From positions 4,050,001 through 4,082,000 of the forward strand of contig NC_014148.1 in assembly GCF_000092105.1 (NCBI RefSeq): a stretch of DNA of 32,000 bases. Direction: 5' to 3'. Source of the DNA: Planctopirus limnophila DSM 3776. GTDB lineage: Bacteria > Planctomycetota > Planctomycetia > Planctomycetales > Planctomycetaceae. A program made the translations under genes and the position numbers. Below, piece after piece: positions 18,157 through 31,983 of the stretch. The notes under the pieces were generated by a model. The model was not told where the DNA came from, ran no database searches, and saw only the letters and a list, made by a program, of their open reading frames with translations. The first letter of the stretch is position 1. Every line of letters starts with the position of its first letter.

Positions 18157-18828
18157 ATGACGCGTCGCGATCTCACACACATTACGTTCGTGCTCGATCG
18201 ATCGGGTTCCATGACATCGATCAAAGCCGCCACCATCGAAAGTTTTAATGCCTTTCTCAATTCCCAAAAATCATTGCCCGGCTGCGCCACGATGACTCTG
18301 GTGCAGTTCGACTACGCCTACGAACTCCTGGCCAATATGCAGCCACTCGACGCGATACCTGAACTCGACATTGAGACATTCATCCCCCGCGGTTCGACCG
18401 CATTACTTGATGCCATGGGCCGGGCGATTGCTGAAACTGGGGAAGCACTTTCAAAGCTGCCCGAAGCAGATCGCCCGGGAACGGTGATCTTCGTGACGCT
18501 GACCGATGGTGAAGAGAATTCGAGTCTGCAGTTCGACATGGCGACCATCAATCAGCAGATCAGCCATCAGCGGTCGGTCTATCAGTGGCAGTTTGTTTTC
18601 CTCGCAGCCAATCAGGATGCGATTGCCACGGCAGCGAACCTGGGGATCGGTGCCGGCCAGGCACTCCGTTTTGCCAGCGATCCCGAAAAAGTAGCCGCCA
18701 CTTTTGACATTATGAACGCACAAATGCAGAAGGTTCGCGCTGCGAAAATGGCCGATGACGACGAGGCTGACCCACTCCTCAGTGAAATCGAATTCACCGA
18801 CGCGATGCGAATTCTGGCGGATGAATAA
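18157..18828 (+). CDS. stand-alone von Willebrand factor A (vWA) domain protein with MIDAS motif
   Basis: GGAGAT RBS lies 7 nt upstream of ATG 18157. DxSxS MIDAS (FVLDRSGSMTS), downstream Thr (GSTALLDAMG) and Asp (LTDGEEN) positions are present. About 224 aa with an acidic C-terminal tail (DDDEADPLLSEIEF). Confidence 0.8.
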   Translation: MTRRDLTHITFVLDRSGSMTSIKAATIESFNAFLNSQKSLPGCATMTLVQFDYAYELLANMQPLDAIPELDIETFIPRGSTALLDAMGRAIAETGEALSKLPEADRPGTVIFVTLTDGEENSSLQFDMATINQQISHQRSVYQWQFVFLAANQDAIATAANLGIGAGQALRFASDPEKVAATFDIMNAQMQKVRAAKMADDDEADPLLSEIEFTDAMRILADE

Positions 18829-18946
18829 CTCTTCACTCAGACAAACGTTCGCATAATAAACCACTTGTGCGCGGGCGTTCACTCAGGCATGATCTTCCAC
18901 ACAGTTGTTTTCACCCACTTACCGGTGCGTCAAGGGCCACATACGC

Positions 18947-20002
18947 ATGTCGGACACGACTCAAATCCTGCGCCAATGGATGTTGCTGCGGATTCTCTCT
19001 GCCCGTCGGCAAGGCGTCACTCTCAAGGCGTTGGCCGAAGAACTCAAGGCGTCGACCAAAACCATACAACGCGATCTCGCACTGCTCCAGCAACTGGCTT
19101 TCCCCATTGACCAGGAGGTCTCTTCGCACGGACGCAAACTCTGGAAAATGACTGATACCACCGGCATACCAGCCCTCACATTCACTCTCGAAGAAGCGGC
19201 CGCTCTTTACTGGGGAAGTCAGTTCCTCGAAGGGCTGGCTGGCACTTACTTCTGGCAAGGCTCACGTACGGCTCTCAAGAAAATCCGCACAGCTTTAGGA
19301 GCACCGGCACTCAAACACCTCCAGAAACTGGCCACAGCCATTCATCTCACAAACGCCAGAGTCGTGGATTATGAATCGCGGGCCGAACTGATCGACAATT
19401 TAATGGTCGCGATCGAAGAACGCCGACTCACAGTAATTACCTATCAATCACTTCGGGCGACGGAACCGGTCACACTTTTAGACATCTACCCCTATGCCCT
19501 GGTTCATCACAAGCATGCTTTATATATCATCGCCTGGTCACGGGATCACGAGGCTATCCGCACCTTTAAGGTGGATCGTATCAGCCACGTCGAACTCCAC
19601 GGCTGGCAATTCAATCGCCCCGAGGATTTCGACCCGGCAGCCCACCTAGAACATTCGTTCGGCATCTTCTCGAGCGATAAAGCACCAGAAACTGTGAAAG
19701 TCCGCTTTGCTCCTGGTGTCAGCCGCATTTTAGAGGAAAAACAATTCCACCCCAGCCAGAAACTCAGCACTCAGCGAGATGGGAGCATTCTGGCCGAATA
19801 CCAACTCGGCCCCCTGGAAGAATTCACCTCCTGGCTCCTCAGCTTCGGCCCCCAGGTCGAAGTATTGGAGCCTGAACACCTGAGAACACGAGTCATCGAC
19901 TCCCTCAGGCAGACAATCCATCACTACGAAAAACCAGGCTTACCGCCAACTTCGGCACTAGCACCTAAATTTTCATTATCAGCCAAGCGGAAAGCGAAAT
20001 AG
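18947..20002 (+). CDS. WYL-domain transcriptional regulator (N-terminal wHTH, central WYL, C-terminal WCX-like extension)
   Basis: HTH block ILRQWMLLRILSARRQGVTLKALAEELKASTKTIQRDLALLQ. WYL-type block ITYQSLRATEPVTLLDIYPYALVHHKHALYIIAWSRDHEAIRTFKVDRI. Lies directly upstream of cas3 on the same strand. Confidence 0.85.
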   Translation: MSDTTQILRQWMLLRILSARRQGVTLKALAEELKASTKTIQRDLALLQQLAFPIDQEVSSHGRKLWKMTDTTGIPALTFTLEEAAALYWGSQFLEGLAGTYFWQGSRTALKKIRTALGAPALKHLQKLATAIHLTNARVVDYESRAELIDNLMVAIEERRLTVITYQSLRATEPVTLLDIYPYALVHHKHALYIIAWSRDHEAIRTFKVDRISHVELHGWQFNRPEDFDPAAHLEHSFGIFSSDKAPETVKVRFAPGVSRILEEKQFHPSQKLSTQRDGSILAEYQLGPLEEFTSWLLSFGPQVEVLEPEHLRTRVIDSLRQTIHHYEKPGLPPTSALAPKFSLSAKRKAK

Positions 20003-20046
20003 CTGACTGTTTATTTTATAGATAATGCCTATCCACTCGATCTGCG
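20003..20046 (+). promoter_or_regulatory. AT-rich putative promoter/operator region for the cas operon
   Basis: ctgactgtTTATTTTATAGATAATgcctatccactcg is the only AT-rich patch between the WYL gene and cas3. It contains a -10-like GATAAT and an imperfect inverted repeat TAGATA-N5-TATCCA. Confidence 0.3.
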
Positions 20047-22749
20047 ATGTACCAAGGCTCTACCCCGATGTTTGATTTCAGCGCCAAATTCGAACAACTG
20101 ACTGGCAGCCCACCTTTCCCGTGGCAAGCAGCTCTTTTCGAAAGAATGACCACCGGCAAGGAGGTCGATATCCCTTCCGTTTGCCACATTCCCACGGGAT
20201 TAGGCAAAACCTCGATCATTGCCATCTGGTTGCTGGCTCTTGCCAGACGACCGAATGACCTTCCCACACGCCTGGCTTATGTCGTCAACCGCCGCACAGT
20301 CGTCGATCAGACAACGACCGAAGTGGAACGCATTAAGAAAAATCTCTCTGCGGCGAACCTCGGCATCCGCGATCTGATGATCAGCACATTAAGAGGGCAG
20401 TTTGCCGATAATCGGGAGTGGTCGAAGAATCCCGCCTTACCCGCTGTCATCTCTGGCACTGTGGATATGATCGGCAGTCGGCTCCTCTTCTCCGGCTACG
20501 GTGTTGGCTTTAAGGCGCGGCCACTCCATGCCGGTTTTCTCGGACAGGACACACTGTTAGTTCACGATGAAGCGCACCTGGAACCAGCTTTCCAGAAACT
20601 GCTTGAATCGATCATGAGTGAGCAGCAGCGAGAACGATCGACCTCGGATGTTCCCTGGCGACCGCTGCAAGTCATGCAACTTTCAGCCACCATCCGTTCG
20701 GATGATGACAAAAGCAGCCAGAAATCGCCCCCCTTCGGGCTCAGCCCGTCGGATGAAAAACATCCGGTTGTGAAACAGCGTCTTCAAGCCACTAAGACCA
20801 TGACCTTGCAGGAAGTCGCTGATGAGAAAAAACCTCTCGTGGAGGCCGTTGTCGCTCGCGCTCTCGAACTTCGGGATTCAAATCGCACAGTGATTATCTT
20901 CCTTCGCAAACTTGACCATGTTGAAAGTGTTCAAGGAGAACTCGAAAAGAAGAAACTTTCGGTACAATTTCTGACAGGGACACAGCGAGGTTACGAACGT
21001 CAGCAGATGGCCGATCCGACATCACCCACCGGCTGCCCGATCTTCGCCCGCTTTCTGCCCCCCCCCAAAGCCAATGACTCGCAAAGTCCATCGTGGAAGG
21101 TAACGCCTGCAGCAGGGACTGTTTACCTCATCTGTACCAGTGCCGGTGAGGTGGGTGTCAATCTCTCTGCCGACCATCTCATTTGTGATCTTTCCACCTA
21201 TGAAAGTATGGCCCAGCGCTTCGGCCGCGTAAATCGGTTCGGCGATCGTGACGACAGTTCGATTCACGTGATCTATCCCTCGACATTCACCGGCGAAGAT
21301 GTATTTAGCCCACCACGGGAAAAGACACTTCTGCTCCTTCGGCAACTTGAAGGCGATGCCAGCCCGGCGGCTCTATCGAAGCTTTACAATGCACGATCAG
21401 AAGAGGTTCATCAAGCATTCACCCCGCTTCCGACCATACTTCCCGCAACCGATATTCTCTTTGATACCTGGGCACTGACATCCATCAAGGGAGAACTCCC
21501 GGGGAGACCACCCGTCGAACCTTACCTCCATGGAATTGAAACCTGGGAGCCACCACAAACCACCATCGCGTGGCGCGAGGAAGTCGATCTCCTGAATGCA
21601 GAAGTTCTCAAAGAGCACCCTCCCGAACAATTGCTCGAAGAGTTTCCCTTATTGCCTCATGAACTCGTCGTCAATACCAGCGAGCGCGCGTTCAAGCATC
21701 TGGCAAAGCTGGCCGAACGACATCCCGAAACCATCGTGTGGATGATCGACCGCAAAGAGAAACTCACGCTCGTCCCACTGAAGGAAGTAGCCAACAAGGA
21801 TCGCAAGGAACGCATTGAACACTGCACCATCCTCCTGCCACCTTCGATTGGCGGCCTGAACAGTGGCCTCCTCGATGGCGACTCTGAAGCACCTGCACTT
21901 GATGTCTCCTGCAAATCACCGACCTCAGAAAACAAGCAACGCTCACGACTGCGGGTTACAGAAGATGAACTCCCATCTTTCCTCAAACAAACTAGGGAGA
22001 TGCGAGTCGTTCGACAGATCGTGCTGGAAGTGGATGAATCGGATACGACCACGCCCGTATCACAAGTTAATACCCAGGAATCATCGACGCTTGATGATCT
22101 GGAAACCGAGTCAACCACTTCACCCGCGAACGGAAAAATCTGGCTCTGGCTGGCAACCCCTGCTCGAACAGGCTTAGGAACGCTGGGTTCAAAGGCACCC
22201 ATCGGGTTGCAACACCATGTGGACGATGTCGTGCGTGAAACAGAACAGATTCTCAAAGAATTGAAGCTCCCTGAGAAGTTGAAGGCTGCTGTCCGCTTGG
22301 CTGCGAAGTATCACGATGAAGGCAAACGAAGACCTTTCTTTCAGATGATGCTGGGAAATCGAAATTTTCCCGATGTTCTGTTGGCCAAGTCTCAGACCGG
22401 CACTGGGCGAATTACAGAAACTTATCGTCACGAATTCGGTTCACTCAGAGATATCACACATGATGCGGAATTCAACGCATTGGAGCCCCATGATCAAGAT
22501 ATCGTGCTTCATTTGATTGCTGCCCACCATGGCCGGGCCAGGCCTCATTTTTCGGCTGATGAAGCCTTTGATCCTTTTGCGCTGGAGAGTGAATCCATCG
22601 CTTTCGCTACAGAAATCCCCCGTCGCTTTGCAAGGTTACAACGCCACTACGGCCGCTGGGGTCTGGCTTATCTGGAATCGATCTTAAGGGCAGCCGATTA
22701 CGCCGCCAGTGCTCACCCTTCTTCACGCGAGGAGCCTGTTCATGAGTAA
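20047..22749 (+). CDS. cas3: CRISPR-associated helicase/endonuclease Cas3, type I-G (I-U) architecture (helicase N-terminal, HD nuclease C-terminal)
   Basis: SF2 motifs: I PTGLGKTS, II VHDEAHLE (DEAH), III LSAT, VI QRFGRVNRFG. The C-terminal HD domain (about nt 22189-22716) has LQHHVDD, KYHDEGK, YRHEFGS, IAAHHGRARP and RAADYAAS. The 900-aa length and domain order match the GSU0051-type Cas3. Confidence 0.9.
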   Translation: MYQGSTPMFDFSAKFEQLTGSPPFPWQAALFERMTTGKEVDIPSVCHIPTGLGKTSIIAIWLLALARRPNDLPTRLAYVVNRRTVVDQTTTEVERIKKNLSAANLGIRDLMISTLRGQFADNREWSKNPALPAVISGTVDMIGSRLLFSGYGVGFKARPLHAGFLGQDTLLVHDEAHLEPAFQKLLESIMSEQQRERSTSDVPWRPLQVMQLSATIRSDDDKSSQKSPPFGLSPSDEKHPVVKQRLQATKTMTLQEVADEKKPLVEAVVARALELRDSNRTVIIFLRKLDHVESVQGELEKKKLSVQFLTGTQRGYERQQMADPTSPTGCPIFARFLPPPKANDSQSPSWKVTPAAGTVYLICTSAGEVGVNLSADHLICDLSTYESMAQRFGRVNRFGDRDDSSIHVIYPSTFTGEDVFSPPREKTLLLLRQLEGDASPAALSKLYNARSEEVHQAFTPLPTILPATDILFDTWALTSIKGELPGRPPVEPYLHGIETWEPPQTTIAWREEVDLLNAEVLKEHPPEQLLEEFPLLPHELVVNTSERAFKHLAKLAERHPETIVWMIDRKEKLTLVPLKEVANKDRKERIEHCTILLPPSIGGLNSGLLDGDSEAPALDVSCKSPTSENKQRSRLRVTEDELPSFLKQTREMRVVRQIVLEVDESDTTTPVSQVNTQESSTLDDLETESTTSPANGKIWLWLATPARTGLGTLGSKAPIGLQHHVDDVVRETEQILKELKLPEKLKAAVRLAAKYHDEGKRRPFFQMMLGNRNFPDVLLAKSQTGTGRITETYRHEFGSLRDITHDAEFNALEPHDQDIVLHLIAAHHGRARPHFSADEAFDPFALESESIAFATEIPRRFARLQRHYGRWGLAYLESILRAADYAASAHPSSREEPVHE

Positions 22750-23641
22750 CGATCAACCCGGAATTCGCGTTGATGTGGACGTAACCAACCCCGGCCAATT
22801 CTTCGCCTGCTGCGGCTTACTGGAACTCGCCGACCGCCTCTGGCCCGGTGCCGAAGGCTGGTTTGAACCGGGAAGTCGCACATTTAACATTAACTGCGTC
22901 GGGACGCTCCAGACTCTCGTGATATCACTGCACGAAGCAAAGTTGGTAAGCACCATGACGGCACCGCAGCGTCGTCGACTCGAAGAGCTATCTTCCCTCA
23001 AAGCAAAAGAGTTGAAGGAACAGCCATCACTGGAAAACGAGAAAAAGGAACTTGAAAAACTGCGTAGAGAATCGCCTCTAGTGTTGCTGGCTCCATTTTC
23101 AATCCGACTTGACTGGTTTGAAGATGAATTCTCTGGGGGTGGTCGATTCAAGACATGGGCTGGCCAGCAATCAGTGGAATCAATTTCAACATCCATGAAA
23201 CACGCACTGAGCACTTTTACTTGGTGGCCACACCCTCCGAAGACACTGCTGGACGAAATCTCTCACGAAAATGGATTGGGCTTCAACTTTGATTCCCATG
23301 TAAGTAGCCAAGGATCTGCTCTTGATGTTGGTTTCAGCCTTGATTCACTGTCTACAAACTCGACGACCAGAATTACCGTAGGTGCCAGACCATACCAGGA
23401 ATTTCTTACATTCGTCGGCCTTCAGCGGTTTCGACCATTAGAAGTCTCCAACGAGAACCGGTTCTTGTATCAAGCTTGGACAACTCCACTCAACCCACTT
23501 CTGGCGGCTGGAGTTACCTCTTGCACCATTGACGCGATTGCGCACCTGACATTCGAGTTTCGACTCTTGTATCGAACTAAGTATCTGAAGAGTTTTCTAA
23601 ACGCCACACCCTATTCTGGAGCGACAAATGTCCTTGTCTAA
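22742..23641 (+). CDS. csb3: type I-G/I-U Csb3-like protein (small Cas8u1-type large-subunit candidate)
   Basis: ATG 22742 overlaps the cas3 stop (ATGAGTAA). The N-terminus IRVDVDVTNPGQFFACCGLLELADRLW matches my recollection of the Csb3 signature. It occupies the large-subunit slot between cas3 and cas7u. About 299 aa. The assignment needs HMM confirmation. Confidence 0.65.
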   Translation: MSNDQPGIRVDVDVTNPGQFFACCGLLELADRLWPGAEGWFEPGSRTFNINCVGTLQTLVISLHEAKLVSTMTAPQRRRLEELSSLKAKELKEQPSLENEKKELEKLRRESPLVLLAPFSIRLDWFEDEFSGGGRFKTWAGQQSVESISTSMKHALSTFTWWPHPPKTLLDEISHENGLGFNFDSHVSSQGSALDVGFSLDSLSTNSTTRITVGARPYQEFLTFVGLQRFRPLEVSNENRFLYQAWTTPLNPLLAAGVTSCTIDAIAHLTFEFRLLYRTKYLKSFLNATPYSGATNVLV

Positions 23642-24701
23642 GAAAATTGATGAGTTTCTGTCATTGAATGGCCCTGCCGCATTGGTGATTCGCGAGCACC
23701 TGACGCCCGTCGAGGGCGAAGATGGTGTGCTATTTCCTCCAACTTATGCCGCCCAAAAGTCTGGCGAACCCGGCGGATACAACATCGACACAGATGCACA
23801 AGGGCAGTCGATTTGTCTCATCGACAGTGTCGGTGCTCAGGCTAATCGCATCGAACCGATGTTCGAAGAAGAACCTTACTCGTCCCTCGTTCCACAAATT
23901 GTCGTCAAGGCGGGTGAAAAGGAAGTCAGTATTTTTGAAGCTGGTCATCGGGCGGGTGACGCACTCGTTCGCTGTTCGGAACTTCAGCAGACTTTACAGG
24001 ATGCCTTTAAGTCTGTTCTCAAAGGTGATGCCGAGCCACTCGCCAAGATCGCACCCACTTCCTTAGTCTTCGGCGTCTGGGATTCACGCGACACCCAGGC
24101 CAAACTTCCACGTATCATTGGCTCGACCATCCGCGCTTATGATGTGAGCAGACTCAAGCGCTCCGCCCAGTTCAATCCTGCAACAGAGTATGTCAACGAA
24201 GGCTTACTCCCTGAGCCAGCGGATAAAACGGCCAAAGATGCTTTTGCTGAACGAGGATTTATCCATGTTCCAGCCACAGGCTCCCATGGCGGCATCATTG
24301 CCCACGGCGGTATTCGTCGCGATGCAACATTAGCACTCACAGCTATTCGCCGCCTCTTCGCAGGCAAGGATGACGCAAAGACGCTCAAACTCCGCCGCTA
24401 CATTCTTGGCCTCTCCCTCGTCGCCTTTACTAAGAATCCTGCGGGTGACTTGCGACAGGGCTGCAATCTGGTGCTGGATCCTTCCAAACCACGAGAATTT
24501 GTTGAAGTCCTGCCGACGGGAGAACGAAAACCCGTCACATTCACCCATGAAGACGCACTGGCGTTCGCCCAGCAGGCCGCCCACGATTTCGGCGTCGGCG
24601 AAAGCCGGGTTGTCCCCTTCGACAAGCAGCGGGCACTCAAGGATGTCAGCCCCAAGGACAAGGAAGAGAAAAAGTCTAAGCCGAAAGCCGCCAAGTCTTG
24701 A
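23628..24701 (+). CDS. csb1: type I-G/I-U Cas7u (Csb1, GSU0053 family) backbone RAMP protein
   Basis: Overlaps the csb3 end by 14 nt. Contains LTPVEGEDGVLFPPTYA..GGYNIDT...ICLIDSVGAQANRIEPMF and SLVFGVWDSRDT blocks, characteristic of the GSU0053/Csb1 family as I remember it. 357 aa, with a Lys-rich C-terminal tail. Confidence 0.75.
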   Translation: MSLSKKIDEFLSLNGPAALVIREHLTPVEGEDGVLFPPTYAAQKSGEPGGYNIDTDAQGQSICLIDSVGAQANRIEPMFEEEPYSSLVPQIVVKAGEKEVSIFEAGHRAGDALVRCSELQQTLQDAFKSVLKGDAEPLAKIAPTSLVFGVWDSRDTQAKLPRIIGSTIRAYDVSRLKRSAQFNPATEYVNEGLLPEPADKTAKDAFAERGFIHVPATGSHGGIIAHGGIRRDATLALTAIRRLFAGKDDAKTLKLRRYILGLSLVAFTKNPAGDLRQGCNLVLDPSKPREFVEVLPTGERKPVTFTHEDALAFAQQAAHDFGVGESRVVPFDKQRALKDVSPKDKEEKKSKPKAAKS

Positions 24702-24750
24702 TTGGCAGCGACCGCCTGAGTTGCATCTTCGATAAACAGCCTCTCGTTCC

Positions 24751-26349
24751 TTGCCTGTAGCTGGAGCATTGATCGTGTCGTATCTCTGTTTGACTGTCCG
24801 ACTTCATCAACCGCTCTTCCATGGCCAGCGGGATGGTGGTGAGCCAGAGTGGCCTCCTTCACCTCTGCGTCTTTATCAGAGCCTTGTCGCTGCAGCGGCA
24901 GCACAAACACCGGATGGTGACCCGATGGCAGTGGCCGGAGACGCCTTACAATGGCTGGAACGGCAGCCTGCACCGGCGATTATCGCTGCCAAGAGTCGGC
25001 TTTCCGTGACTCCGTATCGGATGTATGTCCCCAACAATACGGCTGATCTGGCGGCTTCCTCCTGGTCACGCGGAGCCACCGATACCATCACCGCCAGGGT
25101 TGAAAAGGATATCCGGCCGCTTCATCTCATTCGGCCAGCTGATCTCACAGAACCGGTTCTTCACTATCTTTATGATATCGGTGAGGCTCCTTTTCCCTAC
25201 CTGGAGATTCTTGGGAGGCTGGCACGTTCGATTACACACCTCGGGTGGGGGATCGATCAGGCCTTTGGAAATGCCACGCTTCACGCGACCATGCCTGCGT
25301 CTCAAGCGGGCGAAGAACTGTGGTTACCAGTCATTGACCCGACAGCCACTCAACTCCGAGTCCCTATCAAAGGCTCGTTGCTCGCACTTTCGGCCAAGCA
25401 CGGGGCCTTTTTGAATCGATTGAAACAGGATCTTTTTCACCCTGTTCCCCCACTCACTGCTTTTCAACTCAAGGGATATCGCCCGGATTCTCTGAGACAG
25501 GCCCAACCATTTGCGGCCTTTCAAATTCTCACGATCGACGGTTCGCGGATGCGACTGTTCGATACCACTCAAAAATCTCTGGTTGTCGCGGGTATGCTCC
25601 GCCATCTTGCTGGGCAGGCCGCTCAAGAATCCCGCTGGTCTGATGCCAAGATTAGCAGCGTGATTTTTGGTCACGCCACTCTCCGCAATTCCAATGGAAA
25701 TCAAGAGCGGCATGTTCATCAGCACAACCCGCAACGGCAGGAAAGCCAGGATATTGTTGGCCCGGATCGACTCGCCTACCTGCCTCTTCCCTCAATCGAG
25801 TTTCGTGGCCAGGGTTTATCTGTCGGCAGTGTTCGTCGAGTCCTGATCACGACGTTTGGTCAAGGTTGTTTTGAAGAAGTCGCCTGGACTCGAAGAGCCT
25901 TGAATGGTCGCGATCTGATCAGTGAACACAATGGGCATGCCACGGGAATGATGGCTTCGATCCCAAACTCTGAGAAAATGGTTCAACGCTACACAAATGC
26001 AGCCAATACCTGGGCAACGGTCACGCCGGTCATCCTCCCCGGGCGTGATGATCGCAATCCACGCAAGGCAGAAAAGCTCATTCGAAAAGCACTGTTGCAG
26101 GCAGGTTTTACTGAATTTCTTGCTCAGAATGCCGAGTTAGAATTGCGCAATGTTTCGTTCTGGCCAGGTAGTGACCTCGCCTCCCATTTTCGAGTTCCCA
26201 AGCATCTCGAAGCTTATCCTCGATACCACGTTCGGCTGAAATGGCCCGCCTTGGGGCAGGAACCTCTCAAACTCCCCGGAGTTCTCTGCATCGGAGGTGG
26301 CCGCCACTATGGGCTGGGGTTGTTTGCTGCGGAGAGGGTGAGTGAGTGA
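24751..26349 (+). CDS. csb2: type I-G/I-U Csb2 (GSU0054 family) Cas5u-Cas6u fusion protein
   Basis: N-terminal block LTVRLHQPLFHGQRDGGEPEWPPSPLRLYQSLVAAAA (the EWPPSP.RL.QAL signature of Csb2). C-terminal Gly-rich RAMP loop CIGGGRHYGLGLF. 525-532 aa. There is no ATG start; in-frame candidates are TTG 24751, TTG 24769 and GTG 24775. Confidence 0.8.
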   Translation: MPVAGALIVSYLCLTVRLHQPLFHGQRDGGEPEWPPSPLRLYQSLVAAAAAQTPDGDPMAVAGDALQWLERQPAPAIIAAKSRLSVTPYRMYVPNNTADLAASSWSRGATDTITARVEKDIRPLHLIRPADLTEPVLHYLYDIGEAPFPYLEILGRLARSITHLGWGIDQAFGNATLHATMPASQAGEELWLPVIDPTATQLRVPIKGSLLALSAKHGAFLNRLKQDLFHPVPPLTAFQLKGYRPDSLRQAQPFAAFQILTIDGSRMRLFDTTQKSLVVAGMLRHLAGQAAQESRWSDAKISSVIFGHATLRNSNGNQERHVHQHNPQRQESQDIVGPDRLAYLPLPSIEFRGQGLSVGSVRRVLITTFGQGCFEEVAWTRRALNGRDLISEHNGHATGMMASIPNSEKMVQRYTNAANTWATVTPVILPGRDDRNPRKAEKLIRKALLQAGFTEFLAQNAELELRNVSFWPGSDLASHFRVPKHLEAYPRYHVRLKWPALGQEPLKLPGVLCIGGGRHYGLGLFAAERVSE

Positions 26350-26549
26350 GGTTGTTCGTGGTAAAAGTCTGGTTGCGAGCTGCTACATTTTGCGTAACAA
26401 CGAGCAACGATTGGGATTTGTTCTCTGCGAGTGGAAGTCATGGCCTGAGTGAAGGGAAAGCTGATTTGACTTTTCCCTGCTCGATGTAATGAAGATGGCG
26501 GATTCCTGCCAGCACTCGATGAGTTTTCGTCAGTACCTGAAGTTCGTAC

Positions 26550-26724
26550 ACGAGCCGGAAGCGTCAGCGACGGGCCTATTCAATTCATCGCTTGATCACC
26601 ACAGGTTCCGCTTCAACCCTTTGCAAACCGGATCTTTTTTCTTGATTCGAACTCGCTCCCGATCACGAGATCATTGATGCGAATTCCCTTCTGAAAATGA
26701 CCGTCGCTGACGCTTCCGCCTCGT
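26550..26724. repeat. long imperfect inverted repeat (candidate structured RNA, REP/MITE-like element or bidirectional terminator)
   Basis: 18-bp perfect arms cggaagcgtcagcgacgg (26556-26573) and ccgtcgctgacgcttccg (26701-26718), extendable to 23/24 (26550-26573 vs 26701-26724). Partial complementarity continues inward (aattc..atc..tgatc segments). A T6 run sits near the centre (26635-26640). It lies between the convergent stops at 26349 and 26791. Confidence 0.6.
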
Positions 26725-26790
26725 CCCGTCGTTGTCGGTTCGTTGTTATTCGAAGGCAACGATCGTGGGACTCGGGCAGGGCGCACAGAG

Positions 26791-30545: not shown

Positions 30546-31472
30546 ATGGTTGGTGATTCCCATGCCTGGAAAGAAAAAGAGTGGGAGCGGTATGCAAACG
30601 AGCTTGTCTCGATAGATCACGGTTTGCGTGGAGGATCGTACCAGAGAATTCCGGACCGAAATGGTGACTGCGGATTGGAAGGCGTCGCGGATAGCGGCGA
30701 CGGATACCAGTCATACGCGGATCAAGGCACCGCAGATGCCGACGAGAGAATTCAAAAACAGAAGAACAAGATCTACATAGATCTCAAGAAGCTGGAGACC
30801 TACAAAGACTTTTGGACCGCTTACTTCGAGGATCGGAAGCTCACACGCTGGACGTTGCTAGTTCCCAAGTTTGAAGACAAGGACGTTTTGAAATACGCGA
30901 AGAAGCGAGCGAAGGAAACCCGGAAGCTCAACCTGCCATTTATCGACGACAATTTCGACGTGTATGTGAAGTCGATCGAGGATTTTCCTGCTGCGACATT
31001 GATTGTCCGTGATCCTCGTTTGCCAAGGGGCGACGGAAAGCCGGTCTCTGCCAACAAGGTCATCGAATTCAAAATGCAGGAACCCCACTTTGTACAGATG
31101 ATTGATAAAAAACTGAAGAAAGCGATGCCTCACGCAACCGATACAGAGCGGGAGGCTTATCGGGAAAAGCTTCTCAACTGGCACCTTCGCTCTGATAATT
31201 ACCAGAAGGGCCTCGAACGCCTGTATCCTCCGCAGTGGGAAGACTTGCAGGAGCTGATATCAACGACAGGGGAATCAATTGAGTCGGAAGGACCTTTGGA
31301 CTCCCGAATGCCGGGAACGAGATTGAATGAGACTCGTAAGGAATTCGCAAAAACGCTTGAACAAGAAATGCCATTTATCTTTCAAGCAGATCGTGACATT
31401 GTCTCTTGGGGAACCATCGCACTCTGGTTAGGGATTTGCCCCTTGGATTTTCCGGAGAACGGAAATGACTGA
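30546..31472 (+). CDS. hypothetical protein, first gene of an overlapping operon (candidate effector/sensor of a defence-type system)
   Basis: Long ORF (TTG 30528 or ATG 30546) preceded by a 150-bp AT-rich region. The N-terminal segment YQRIPDRNGDCGLEGVADSGDGYQSY loosely recalls the GD.GIDG ... Q.K core of Mrr-type PD-(D/E)xK nucleases, but the Lys position is not conserved. The rest is Lys/Glu-rich and helical. No family confidently recognised. Confidence 0.6.
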   Translation: MVGDSHAWKEKEWERYANELVSIDHGLRGGSYQRIPDRNGDCGLEGVADSGDGYQSYADQGTADADERIQKQKNKIYIDLKKLETYKDFWTAYFEDRKLTRWTLLVPKFEDKDVLKYAKKRAKETRKLNLPFIDDNFDVYVKSIEDFPAATLIVRDPRLPRGDGKPVSANKVIEFKMQEPHFVQMIDKKLKKAMPHATDTEREAYREKLLNWHLRSDNYQKGLERLYPPQWEDLQELISTTGESIESEGPLDSRMPGTRLNETRKEFAKTLEQEMPFIFQADRDIVSWGTIALWLGICPLDFPENGND

Positions 31473-31983
31473 ACTTACTCTGGAAAACGCACTTGATGTA
31501 CCCTTCACGTTTTTCCGTCGGCCGACGCCCATGCCGTGCGATGTGCGACCCGTGTGGCGGATGCACGTCCTCGTTCTGCTCCTGAATCAATGCCGTGGCG
31601 CGAAGGCTGGTTTTGAGCAAATTCACGTACTCAATTGGGCGATCCGATCACCAGAAACGCGAAGGGCCTTCCTGCAATTCATCCAAGGCAAGCGGGCACC
31701 GAACGATATCATTGTTCGATACGATCCGAGCCTCAATCGAGCAGTGCGTTTCGCATTCGCTGAAGGTCTTGTTGTCCATCACGAGACGGAGCCGAGCCTA
31801 ATCGAAGACGAAGATGAAAAACGCGCTCCTGCATACCGCGTCATCTTGACAGAAAAAGGCCACAAGCTCGTCGCTGAAATCAAGAAGATGGATGACTGCT
31901 TTACCACTGAAAAGCAGTTTTTGCAGGAAATCGGAGCAAAGATAAGCCAGAAGCAAGTCAAATCGCTTTTCACCTGGAGTTGA
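31465..31983 (+). CDS. hypothetical small protein (172 aa), possible winged-helix 'middle component'
   Basis: The ATG overlaps the upstream gene by 8 nt (31465 vs stop 31472). The segment YRVILTEKGHKLVAEIKK resembles the wing/recognition region of MarR-like wHTH proteins. An acidic linker EDEDEK is present. No family confidently recognised. Confidence 0.6.
   Translation: MTELTLENALDVPFTFFRRPTPMPCDVRPVWRMHVLVLLLNQCRGAKAGFEQIHVLNWAIRSPETRRAFLQFIQGKRAPNDIIVRYDPSLNRAVRFAFAEGLVVHHETEPSLIEDEDEKRAPAYRVILTEKGHKLVAEIKKMDDCFTTEKQFLQEIGAKISQKQVKSLFTWS

What the first reader, a model, noticed from the sequence alone, without database searches (positions are those of the whole stretch)
18947..26349. Orphan type I-G/I-U-like interference operon (WYL regulator - cas3 - csb3 - csb1 - csb2) with no adaptation genes and no CRISPR array nearby
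Seen directly: four tightly coupled genes with Cas3(helicase-HD)/Csb3/Csb1/Csb2 signatures. The overlaps are 8 nt and 14 nt, followed by a 49-nt gap.

Canonical I-G loci (Geobacter GSU0051-0058 type) continue with a cas4-cas1 fusion, cas2 and an array. Here csb2 is followed by 440 bp without regularly spaced direct repeats, then by a convergent, unrelated 1077-aa gene. The 18 kb upstream holds transporter and envelope genes. Every other intergenic region was read by eye and none contains an array.

Cas3 keeps all helicase and HD catalytic motifs, and Csb2 keeps its Gly-rich Cas6-like loop. The module therefore looks functional rather than decayed. Two explanations fit (inference):
- it is guided in trans by a distant array, or
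- it is an array-independent or differently guided derivative of a Cas3-containing type I system, which would be unusual. Known adaptation-less derivatives (type IV, CAST I-F/I-B) have lost Cas3.
Basis: partly seen in the sequence, partly recalled or inferred. Interest (0 to 1): 0.8.

Follow-up and report, generated by a model that had tools for sequence, protein, structure and literature searches.

The report
Stand-alone type I-G CRISPR interference operon
This is an intact CRISPR type I-G "search and destroy" gene set in Planctopirus limnophila that has lost its neighbouring spacer-acquisition genes and repeat array, a reduced state that recurs among relatives and is therefore more ordinary than it first looks.

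Summary
Window 18947-26349 encodes a WYL regulator, Cas3g, Cas8g2 (Csb3), Cas7g (Csb1) and Csb2. All score far above the curated type I-G cut-offs.

No cas1, cas2 or cas4 gene and no I-G repeat occurs from about 7 kb before the window to 2.2 kb after it. That includes a repeat covariance-model search with filters off.

The genes look functional:
- Cas3g keeps its helicase and HD motifs.
- dN/dS against a roughly 94% identical Planctopirus MAG is 0.07-0.22.

The arrangement is not a new kind of system:
- 7 of 30 well-flanked relatives also lack adaptation genes.
- These relatives are scattered across the Csb2 tree.
- The nearest clade is canonical.
- The sibling MAG still carries a degenerate two-repeat regulatory mini-array, in a 1.1 kb segment deleted in this strain.

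The source is P. limnophila DSM 3776. Its genome paper lists one CRISPR array, which I could not locate.

Most likely this is an ordinary I-G effector that uses crRNAs made elsewhere. Otherwise it was orphaned recently. An array-independent function is not excluded but is unlikely.

The parts
18947..20002 (+). HTH_11-WYL-WCX transcription regulator, first gene of the cas operon
   Evidence: Pfam WCX 3.5e-20, WYL 3.3e-17, HTH_11 2.4e-8. PADLOC CRISPR-associated WYL 3.7e-41. A homologous WYL gene lies upstream of cas3 in 24 of the sources searched, six of which are copies of this window's own locus. dN/dS 0.11 against L011.
20047..22749 (+). cas3g, a helicase-nuclease with an N-terminal DEAH helicase and a C-terminal HD nuclease
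   Evidence: TIGR02621 9.3e-191, 637 bits. PADLOC Cas3g 6.8e-243. GLGKT, DEAH, SAT, QRFGR and HD motifs are all present at columns conserved in at least 90% of 55 homologues. dN/dS 0.19.
22742..23641 (+). cas8g2 (csb3, GSU0052 family), the large subunit
   Evidence: TIGR04106 2.4e-127. PADLOC Cas8g 5.5e-128. dN/dS 0.11.
23628..24701 (+). cas7g (csb1, GSU0053 family), the backbone subunit
   Evidence: PF09617 5e-45. TIGR02570 4.9e-50. dN/dS 0.07.
24775..26349 (+). csb2 (Cas5-Cas6 fusion, GSU0054 family), the pre-crRNA endonuclease subunit. An alternative TTG start lies at 24751.
   Evidence: PF09609 2.6e-96. TIGR02165 7.4e-149. 100% identical to the protein NCBI names for Planctopirus limnophila DSM 3776. 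Invariant His485 and the Gly-rich loop are kept. dN/dS 0.22.
18825..18857 (.). Junction where the sibling MAG (L011 2972-4080) carries 1.1 kb that this strain lacks. That segment holds a divergent two-repeat I-G mini-array, its TTC-flanked partial target, and two cargo ORFs.
   Evidence: blastn of L011 against L001. Covariance-model hit at L011 3047-3081, minus strand, E 0.006. Sequences read. Spacer-target match of 17 of 20 informative positions, against at most 15 in shuffles. Cargo ORF carries a GerE/sigma-70 region 4 HTH.
26350..26790 (.). Spacer after csb2, where relatives have adaptation genes or an array. It holds no I-G repeat, only a 20-nt inverted-repeat pair at 26554-26573 and 26701-26720.
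   Evidence: Covariance-model search with filters off: best hit 9.5 bits, E 2. Inverted repeat. Fold z-score -5.5. The region is conserved in L011 apart from a 1.1 kb insertion at window 26784.

Best explanation
This is a genuine subtype I-G interference module of the Cas8g2/Csb3 variant, under a WYL-domain regulator, on the chromosome of Planctopirus limnophila DSM 3776.

It sits in a variable defence island, and lineage-specific loss has stripped away its adaptation genes, its array and even its small regulatory mini-array.

Inferred mechanism, from the characterised I-G system:
- Csb2 cuts repeat hairpins out of a pre-crRNA and stays on the 3' hairpin.
- Cas7g, Cas8g2 and Csb2 assemble on the crRNA, with Cas3g as a stable subunit.
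- The complex recognises TTN-flanked DNA targets.
- Cas3g unwinds and degrades the target.

No guide is encoded nearby. The crRNAs would therefore have to come from an I-G-type array elsewhere in the genome, and the genome paper reports one array. New spacers could not be acquired by this locus itself.

Shown here: gene identities, intact motifs, purifying selection, local absence of array and adaptation genes, and recurrence of the reduced state in relatives. Inferred: the trans supply of crRNA and actual activity.
For: - Family scores are far above the curated cut-offs.
- Cas3g catalytic motifs are intact. Csb2 keeps its invariant His and Gly-rich loop.
- All five genes are under purifying selection against the MAG L011, with dN/dS 0.07-0.22. 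That range overlaps with, but runs above, the flanking non-cas genes at 0.04-0.10. L011 shows the same arrangement, with no adaptation genes and no regular array in the 10 kb before and 7 kb after csb2.
- The sibling locus still makes a crRNA-like guide with standard I-G repeat features (CCCCATTGAAGC handle, hairpin) and a TTC-flanked target. The lineage's Cascade is therefore a normal repeat-dependent one.
- Among 30 relatives with at least 3 kb upstream and 4 kb downstream, 7 lack Cas4/Cas1. Four of them keep arrays (L009, L010, L052, L076). L060 and L011 keep only a mini-array, and L057 has nothing. They are scattered over the Csb2 tree, and the sister clade L007/L008 is canonical.
- The genome paper lists 'CRISPR repeats 1'.
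- The biochemistry of I-G comes from PMC9638904.
- Trans use of crRNAs is the accepted reading for other array-less systems such as III-G.
Against: - I could not see the rest of the genome. The one reported array is unlocated. It could be a false positive of the 2010 pipeline or of a non-I-G type.
- No P. limnophila protein appeared among the 120 best Cas4g/Cas1g homologues, although other Planctomycetaceae did. The genome probably has no I-G adaptation module to keep such an array current.
- The regulatory mini-array segment present in the sibling is deleted here, which fits ongoing reduction.
- One other assembly of the same strain has a 1-nt deletion that frameshifts cas3.
Confidence: 0.5

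Rival explanations
1. Recently orphaned and idle. The genome has no usable I-G array, so the operon is an intact but guide-less remnant that has not yet had time to accumulate disabling mutations.
For: - Stepwise reduction is visible. The sister clade is complete, and the sibling MAG has only a degenerate two-repeat mini-array. This strain lacks even that.
- No I-G adaptation fusion from this species appears among the top Cas4g/Cas1g hits.
- A cas3 frameshift occurs in another assembly of the same strain.
- The island is in flux: the Lamassu genes and two 1.1 kb segments differ between the two genomes.
Against: - dN/dS of 0.07-0.22 over dS of about 0.2 shows long-term constraint while the locus already lacked adjacent adaptation genes and a regular array in both genomes.
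- All catalytic motifs are intact.
- One CRISPR array is reported for the genome.
Confidence: 0.3
2. Array-independent or differently guided derivative. The Cascade-Cas3 complex is kept for a job that needs no CRISPR array. Examples would be gene regulation, or defence guided by non-CRISPR or mobile-element-borne RNAs, sensed through the WYL regulator.
For: - Purifying selection acts without a local guide source.
- The fully bare state recurs independently in L057.
- Relatives show that I-G Cascade is used for regulation through mini-arrays (PMC10120712 and bioRxiv 10.1101/2023.03.10.532045).
Against: - Nothing in the proteins departs from canonical I-G. The Csb2 repeat-nuclease His and the Cas3 nuclease motifs are kept.
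- The state is polyphyletic and shallow rather than a conserved clade.
- The regulatory mini-array that would support a regulatory role is absent here.
- No relative of Csb2 is found on viral contigs.
Confidence: 0.08
3. Split locus just outside the region examined. The array and cas4/cas1-cas2 lie slightly beyond the sequence I could read, displaced by inserted genes.
For: - Relatives tolerate up to about 4.7 kb of inserted genes between csb2 and the adaptation genes (L019, L064, L037, L082).
- Two inserted blocks follow csb2 here, the DUF6288 gene and Lamassu.
- All assemblies break at the same base 7.9 kb downstream of csb2.
Against: - The break is caused by a dispersed, non-CRISPR repeat. 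It occurs once in most metagenome contigs that carry it (twice in one), with unrelated flanks.
- It does not match the I-G repeat model.
- The MAG shows different, non-cas sequence after the DUF6288 gene.
- The top Cas4g/Cas1g homologues include none from this genome.
Confidence: 0.07

Closest known systems
Canonical subtype I-G (formerly I-U) locus, Geobacter sulfurreducens GSU0051-0058 type
   Same: Same four effector genes in the same order (cas3g, cas8g2/csb3, cas7g/csb1, csb2), each matching the GSU005x-based NCBIfam/TIGRFAM models as equivalogs or exceptions. The Cas3 domain order is helicase then HD.
   Different: No cas4g/cas1g fusion, no cas2 and no array in the sequence read (about 26 kb upstream and 8 kb downstream of the operon). 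Most relatives have all three right after csb2.
Thioalkalivibrio sulfidiphilus type I-G effector (Shangguan et al. 2022, PMC9638904)
   Same: It gives the working model. Csb2 processes pre-crRNA through a C-terminal His and stays on the 3' hairpin. Cas7 forms the backbone. Cas3 is a stable subunit bound through Cas8g. The PAM is TTN. The repeats of relatives here have the same layout, with a hairpin, 4 nt, then an 8-nt ATTGAAGC handle.
   Different: The paper gives Csx17 as a legacy name of that system's Cas8g, whereas the large subunit here is of the Csb3/Cas8g2 family. That system also has adaptation genes and an array in its locus. No solved structure matches these proteins by sequence.
Adaptation-less I-G loci in relatives (L009 Pirellulales, L010 Thermoguttaceae, L060 Pirellula sp., L057 Verrucomicrobia bacterium LW23)
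   Same: An intact cas3-cas8g2-cas7g-csb2 operon, often with an upstream WYL gene, and no Cas4/Cas1 in the 5 kb upstream of cas3 or the 10 kb downstream of csb2. L057 also has no repeat at all.
   Different: L009 and L010 keep 5-10 repeats right after csb2, and L060 keeps a two-repeat mini-array. These loci share only 39-46% Csb2 identity with the window and belong to other clades.
CreR / regulatory mini-arrays and CreTA (PMC10120712; bioRxiv 10.1101/2023.03.10.532045; PMC9458426)
   Same: The sibling MAG L011, and also L081 and L054, carry a two-repeat mini-array divergent from cas3. Its spacer partly matches a nearby TTC-flanked site, and the mismatches include the sixth positions.
   Different: The window itself has no such element. 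The segment that holds it is deleted.
Array-less, adaptation-less systems thought to borrow crRNAs (subtype III-G), and Cas3-less derivatives (type IV, CAST)
   Same: No own array or adaptation module, with trans supply of crRNA proposed.
   Different: Those are conserved, distinct subtypes with modified effectors. This is an unmodified I-G effector with an intact Cas3, and its reduced state is sporadic.

Membership tests
Subtype I-G CRISPR-Cas | Cas3g with an N-terminal superfamily-2 helicase and a C-terminal HD nuclease | tested here: met
   TIGR02621 at 637 bits against a cut-off of 400. DEAD domain at residues 26-217 and HD at 721-841. Motifs intact.
Subtype I-G CRISPR-Cas | Large subunit of the Cas8g family | tested here: met
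   TIGR04106 Cas8g2 at 424 bits against a cut-off of 125. PADLOC Cas8g 5.5e-128.
Subtype I-G CRISPR-Cas | Cas7g (Csb1) backbone subunit | tested here: met
   TIGR02570 at 170 bits against 38. PF09617 5e-45.
Subtype I-G CRISPR-Cas | Csb2, the Cas5-Cas6 fusion that processes pre-crRNA | tested here: met
   TIGR02165 at 497 bits against 45. PF09609 2.6e-96. Invariant His485 and the Gly-rich loop are present. Equivalence of His485 to the catalytic H503 of the T. sulfidiphilus protein is inferred, not aligned.
Subtype I-G CRISPR-Cas | Cas4g/Cas1g fusion and Cas2 in the locus | tested here: not met
   Profiles built from a verified Cas4g/Cas1g and Cas2 hit 61 and 58 sources, but not the window, L001 or L011. 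No cas gene is called in the upstream extension L093. No P. limnophila protein is among the 120 best Cas4g/Cas1g homologues.
Subtype I-G CRISPR-Cas | Adjacent CRISPR array of 36-37-nt repeats ending in CCCCATTGAAGC | tested here: not met
   A covariance model built from 37 such repeats finds nothing in the window, L001 or L093 with filters off. Three other repeat searches are also negative. The rest of the genome could not be tested.
CreR / CreTA-type regulatory mini-array | One or two degenerate repeats near the cas promoter, with a spacer partly matching a PAM-flanked site nearby | tested here: not met
   Absent from the window. Present in the sibling L011 and in L081 and L054.
Cas3-less type I derivatives (type IV, CRISPR-associated transposons) | Loss or inactivation of Cas3, and association with DinG/CysH or Tn7-like genes | tested here: not met
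   Cas3g is present with all motifs. No transposition or DinG genes lie among the neighbours.

The most novel reading that the evidence does not exclude
Planctopirus keeps a complete, Cas3-containing I-G effector under purifying selection with no array and no adaptation genes anywhere in the genome. It would use the effector in an array-independent or differently guided way, for example with guides supplied by mobile elements or other transcripts, under control of the WYL sensor-regulator.
Probability: 0.07. Interest if true: 0.8.

Novelty: new member of a known kind. Interest (0 to 1): 0.27.

Why it matters
If the trans-array reading is right, this is one more example of modular CRISPR loci being pulled apart in defence islands, and it matters little.

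Its modest value is as a natural series in one genus and its neighbours. The series runs from a complete locus, to a small array only, to a regulatory mini-array only, to a bare effector. That shows how a Cas3-containing system is reduced while its effector genes stay constrained.

P. limnophila is genetically tractable, so the question of what an array-less Cascade-Cas3 does could be tested directly there. Only if the genome truly lacks any I-G array would the locus become a serious candidate for a non-canonical function.

Tried and rejected
1. An array hidden at the contig break.
- All four assemblies with sequence downstream of the operon end within about 50 nt of one point, about 7.9 kb after csb2; two end at exactly the same base.
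- The last bases (GGGTGGCCCCGGTTGAAATTC) resemble an I-G handle. I spent the metagenome scan on this sequence.
- It occurs once in five of six contigs and twice in the sixth, with unrelated flanks. It has no Rfam match and no hit to the repeat model.
- Rejected: it is a dispersed repeat, not a CRISPR.

2. A decayed repeat in the 441-bp spacer after csb2. The only hit was 9.5 bits with E 2 on the minus strand. Not significant.

3. The plasmid of the strain as carrier of the array. Neither accession I tried is in the plasmid collection. Untested.

4. Locating the source genome in genome contigs.

5. Literature on CRISPR in Planctopirus. Nothing beyond the count of one array in the genome paper.

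6. Solved structures. Csb2 and Cas8g2 have no sequence match. Cas3g has only a weak hit to a Cas3 helicase core.

7. Viral contigs. None encodes a Csb2 relative.

8. I ran no further search on translated repeat peptides to fish for spurious ORFs in a hidden array. The chance of success was too low for the cost.
Full report
**What is in the window**

ORF listing and public gene calls give five co-directional genes:
- 18947-20002
- 20047-22749
- 22742-23641
- 23628-24701
- 24775-26349, or from TTG 24751

The 49-nt gap holds for the TTG start. A 441-bp spacer follows, then a convergent 1077-aa gene with DUF6288, HEAT and SASA esterase domains.

Profile searches leave no doubt about identity:
- Cas3g: TIGR02621, 637 bits against a cut-off of 400
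- Cas8g2/Csb3: TIGR04106, 424 against 125
- Cas7g/Csb1: TIGR02570, 170 against 38
- Csb2: TIGR02165, 497 against 45
- an HTH_11-WYL-WCX regulator that also matches the CRISPR-associated WYL models of PADLOC

Cas3g has the I-G domain order, helicase first and HD last. It keeps GLGKT, DEAH, SAT, QRFGR and the HD residues. These sit at columns conserved in at least 90% of 55 homologues. Csb2 keeps an invariant C-terminal His485 and the Gly-rich loop.

**Source organism**

Csb2 is 100% identical to a protein that NCBI names for Planctopirus limnophila DSM 3776. Logan assemblies of that strain are identical to the window.

**No guide source or adaptation genes nearby**

Three repeat searches find no array in the 32 kb.

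I then derived the cognate repeat family from 80 related loci. It is 36-37 nt, with the layout nTTTCC, a 7-bp stem, a loop, the stem again, then CCCCATTGAAGC. This matches the hairpin, 4 nt and 8-nt handle described for I-G.

I built a covariance model from 37 such repeats. With filters off it finds nothing in:
- the window
- the 2.2 kb beyond its end (L001)
- the 7.1 kb before its start (L093)

The best window score was 10 bits, E about 1.

Profiles seeded with a verified Cas4g/Cas1g fusion and Cas2 hit 61 and 58 of the sources, but not the window.

A search of the large protein collection with a Planctomycetaceae Cas4g/Cas1g returned 120 hits of at least 50% identity where identity was reported. 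They include Schlesneria and Planctellipticum. None came from the 5.42-Mb P. limnophila chromosome.

**The suspicious contig end**

All four assemblies with sequence downstream of the operon stop within about 50 nt of one point, about 7.9 kb after csb2; two stop at exactly the same base. The last bases there look a little like an I-G handle.

A metagenome scan showed this 21-mer once in five of six contigs and twice in the sixth, with unrelated flanks and a conserved hairpin. It has no Rfam match. It is a dispersed repeat, not an array.

**Is the module alive?**

A MAG from a pond (L011, Planctomyces sp. D1_MAG_00040) carries the same locus at 92-98% nucleotide identity. It too has no adaptation genes and no regular array in the 10 kb before and 7 kb after csb2.

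| Gene | dN/dS against L011 |
|---|---|
| WYL regulator | 0.11 |
| cas3g | 0.19 |
| cas8g2 | 0.11 |
| cas7g | 0.07 |
| csb2 | 0.22 |
| flanking non-cas genes | 0.04-0.10 |

dS is about 0.2 for three of the cas genes. The effector has therefore been under constraint while already lacking neighbours.

**How unusual is the arrangement?**

Among relatives with at least 3 kb upstream of cas3 and 4 kb downstream of csb2, 23 have Cas4/Cas1 and 7 do not. The seven are:
- L009, L010, L052 and L076, which keep arrays
- L060 and L011, which have only a two-repeat mini-array
- L057, an isolate of Verrucomicrobia, which has no repeat at all

On a Csb2 neighbour-joining tree these loci are scattered. The sister clade of the window (L007, L008) is canonical. 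The state is thus a recurrent reduction, not a conserved derived lineage. No Csb2 relative lies on viral contigs.

**The sibling's mini-array**

L011 has 1.1 kb between the upstream gene and the WYL gene. DSM 3776 has only 33 nt at that position, window 18825-18857. On the strand opposite to cas3 the extra segment holds:
- a repeat with a perfect CCCCATTGAAGC handle
- a 37-nt spacer
- a second repeat with a perfect hairpin but a truncated 3' end

The spacer matches a site 60 nt away on the cas strand. That site is flanked by TTC, the I-G PAM type. The match covers 17 of 20 informative positions in the first 24, and three of the six mismatches in that stretch fall at sixth positions. Shuffled spacers reach at most 15.

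The target lies about 100 nt upstream of two cargo ORFs, one of them a GerE/sigma-70 region 4 protein. These ORFs precede the WYL gene.

L081 and L054 show the same design just upstream of cas3. L081 matches 19 of 20 positions.

This is the published regulatory mini-array (CreR) pattern. It has been reported for about 4% of I-G loci and noted for I-U. That work also notes that relatives often have 'empty' loci lacking both mini-array and cargo. DSM 3776 is such an empty locus.

**Interpretation**

The proteins are unmodified I-G. The sibling's guide has canonical repeat features, so the effector is a normal repeat-dependent Cascade-Cas3.

The genome paper counts one CRISPR array in the strain. 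I cannot place it or type it.

My ranking of the explanations is:

| Explanation | Confidence |
|---|---|
| Ordinary effector fed in trans by that array | about 0.5 |
| Recent orphaning | about 0.3 |
| Array-independent role | about 0.08 |
| Split locus just out of reach | about 0.07 |

Points in favour of ongoing decay:
- the deletion of the mini-array segment
- the probable lack of I-G adaptation genes
- a 1-nt deletion in cas3 in one other assembly of the strain

Points against decay are the low dN/dS values and the intact motifs.

**Verdict**

The locus is a new example of a known kind, a partial I-G locus, and is of low to moderate interest. One whole-genome array and Cas1 scan would settle the open question.

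Noticed in passing
window 30546-31983, continuing to about 34024 (L001 16919-20397): A three-gene Lamassu-like system lies downstream. It comprises a 308-aa protein with no family match in the LmuA position, LmuC (PADLOC 8e-32) and LmuB (2.6e-107). It is absent from the sibling MAG, whose homology to the window ends at window 30228. The cas operon therefore sits in a variable defence island.
   Followed up: partly
L011 2981-3174; L081 5046-5239; L054 1827-2740: Two-repeat I-G mini-arrays lie divergent from cas3. Their spacers partly match a nearby TTC-flanked site upstream of cas3 or of cargo genes. This is the CreR-like autoregulation pattern, seen here in three unrelated I-G loci. Single stray repeats also occur upstream of cas3 in L059, L073 and L034.
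   Followed up: partly
window 22742-23641 and 24775-26349 compared with 18947-22749 and 23628-24701: Divergence from the sibling MAG is mosaic. cas8g2 and csb2 have dS of 0.04-0.05. The WYL gene, cas3g and cas7g have dS of about 0.22. This suggests recent recombination inside the operon.
   Followed up: no
L001 20591-20620 (about window 34218-34247), just outside the window: A dispersed structured repeat (GCAGGGTGGCCCCGGTTGAAATTC..CCGGGGTG..) ends or nearly ends every assembly with sequence here (two at the same base). It recurs in freshwater metagenome contigs with unrelated flanks. It has no Rfam family and its nature is unknown.
   Followed up: partly
window 26554-26573 and 26701-26720: A 20-nt inverted-repeat pair (GCCGGAAGCGTCAGCGACGG) encloses 127 nt in the spacer after csb2. 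It folds into a long hairpin with z-score -5.5. The same 20-mer sits next to the other dispersed repeat in metagenome contig L089, so it may be a small mobile or REP-like element.
   Followed up: partly
window 21106 (L003 position 3592): An otherwise identical assembly from run SRR9434984 lacks one C here. This splits cas3 into 394-aa and 513-aa ORFs. It is either a real inactivating mutation in a derivative culture or an assembly error.
   Followed up: partly
L011 12010-13110 (inserted at window 26784): The sibling MAG has an extra 312-aa ORF with no family match, between csb2 and the DUF6288 gene.
   Followed up: no
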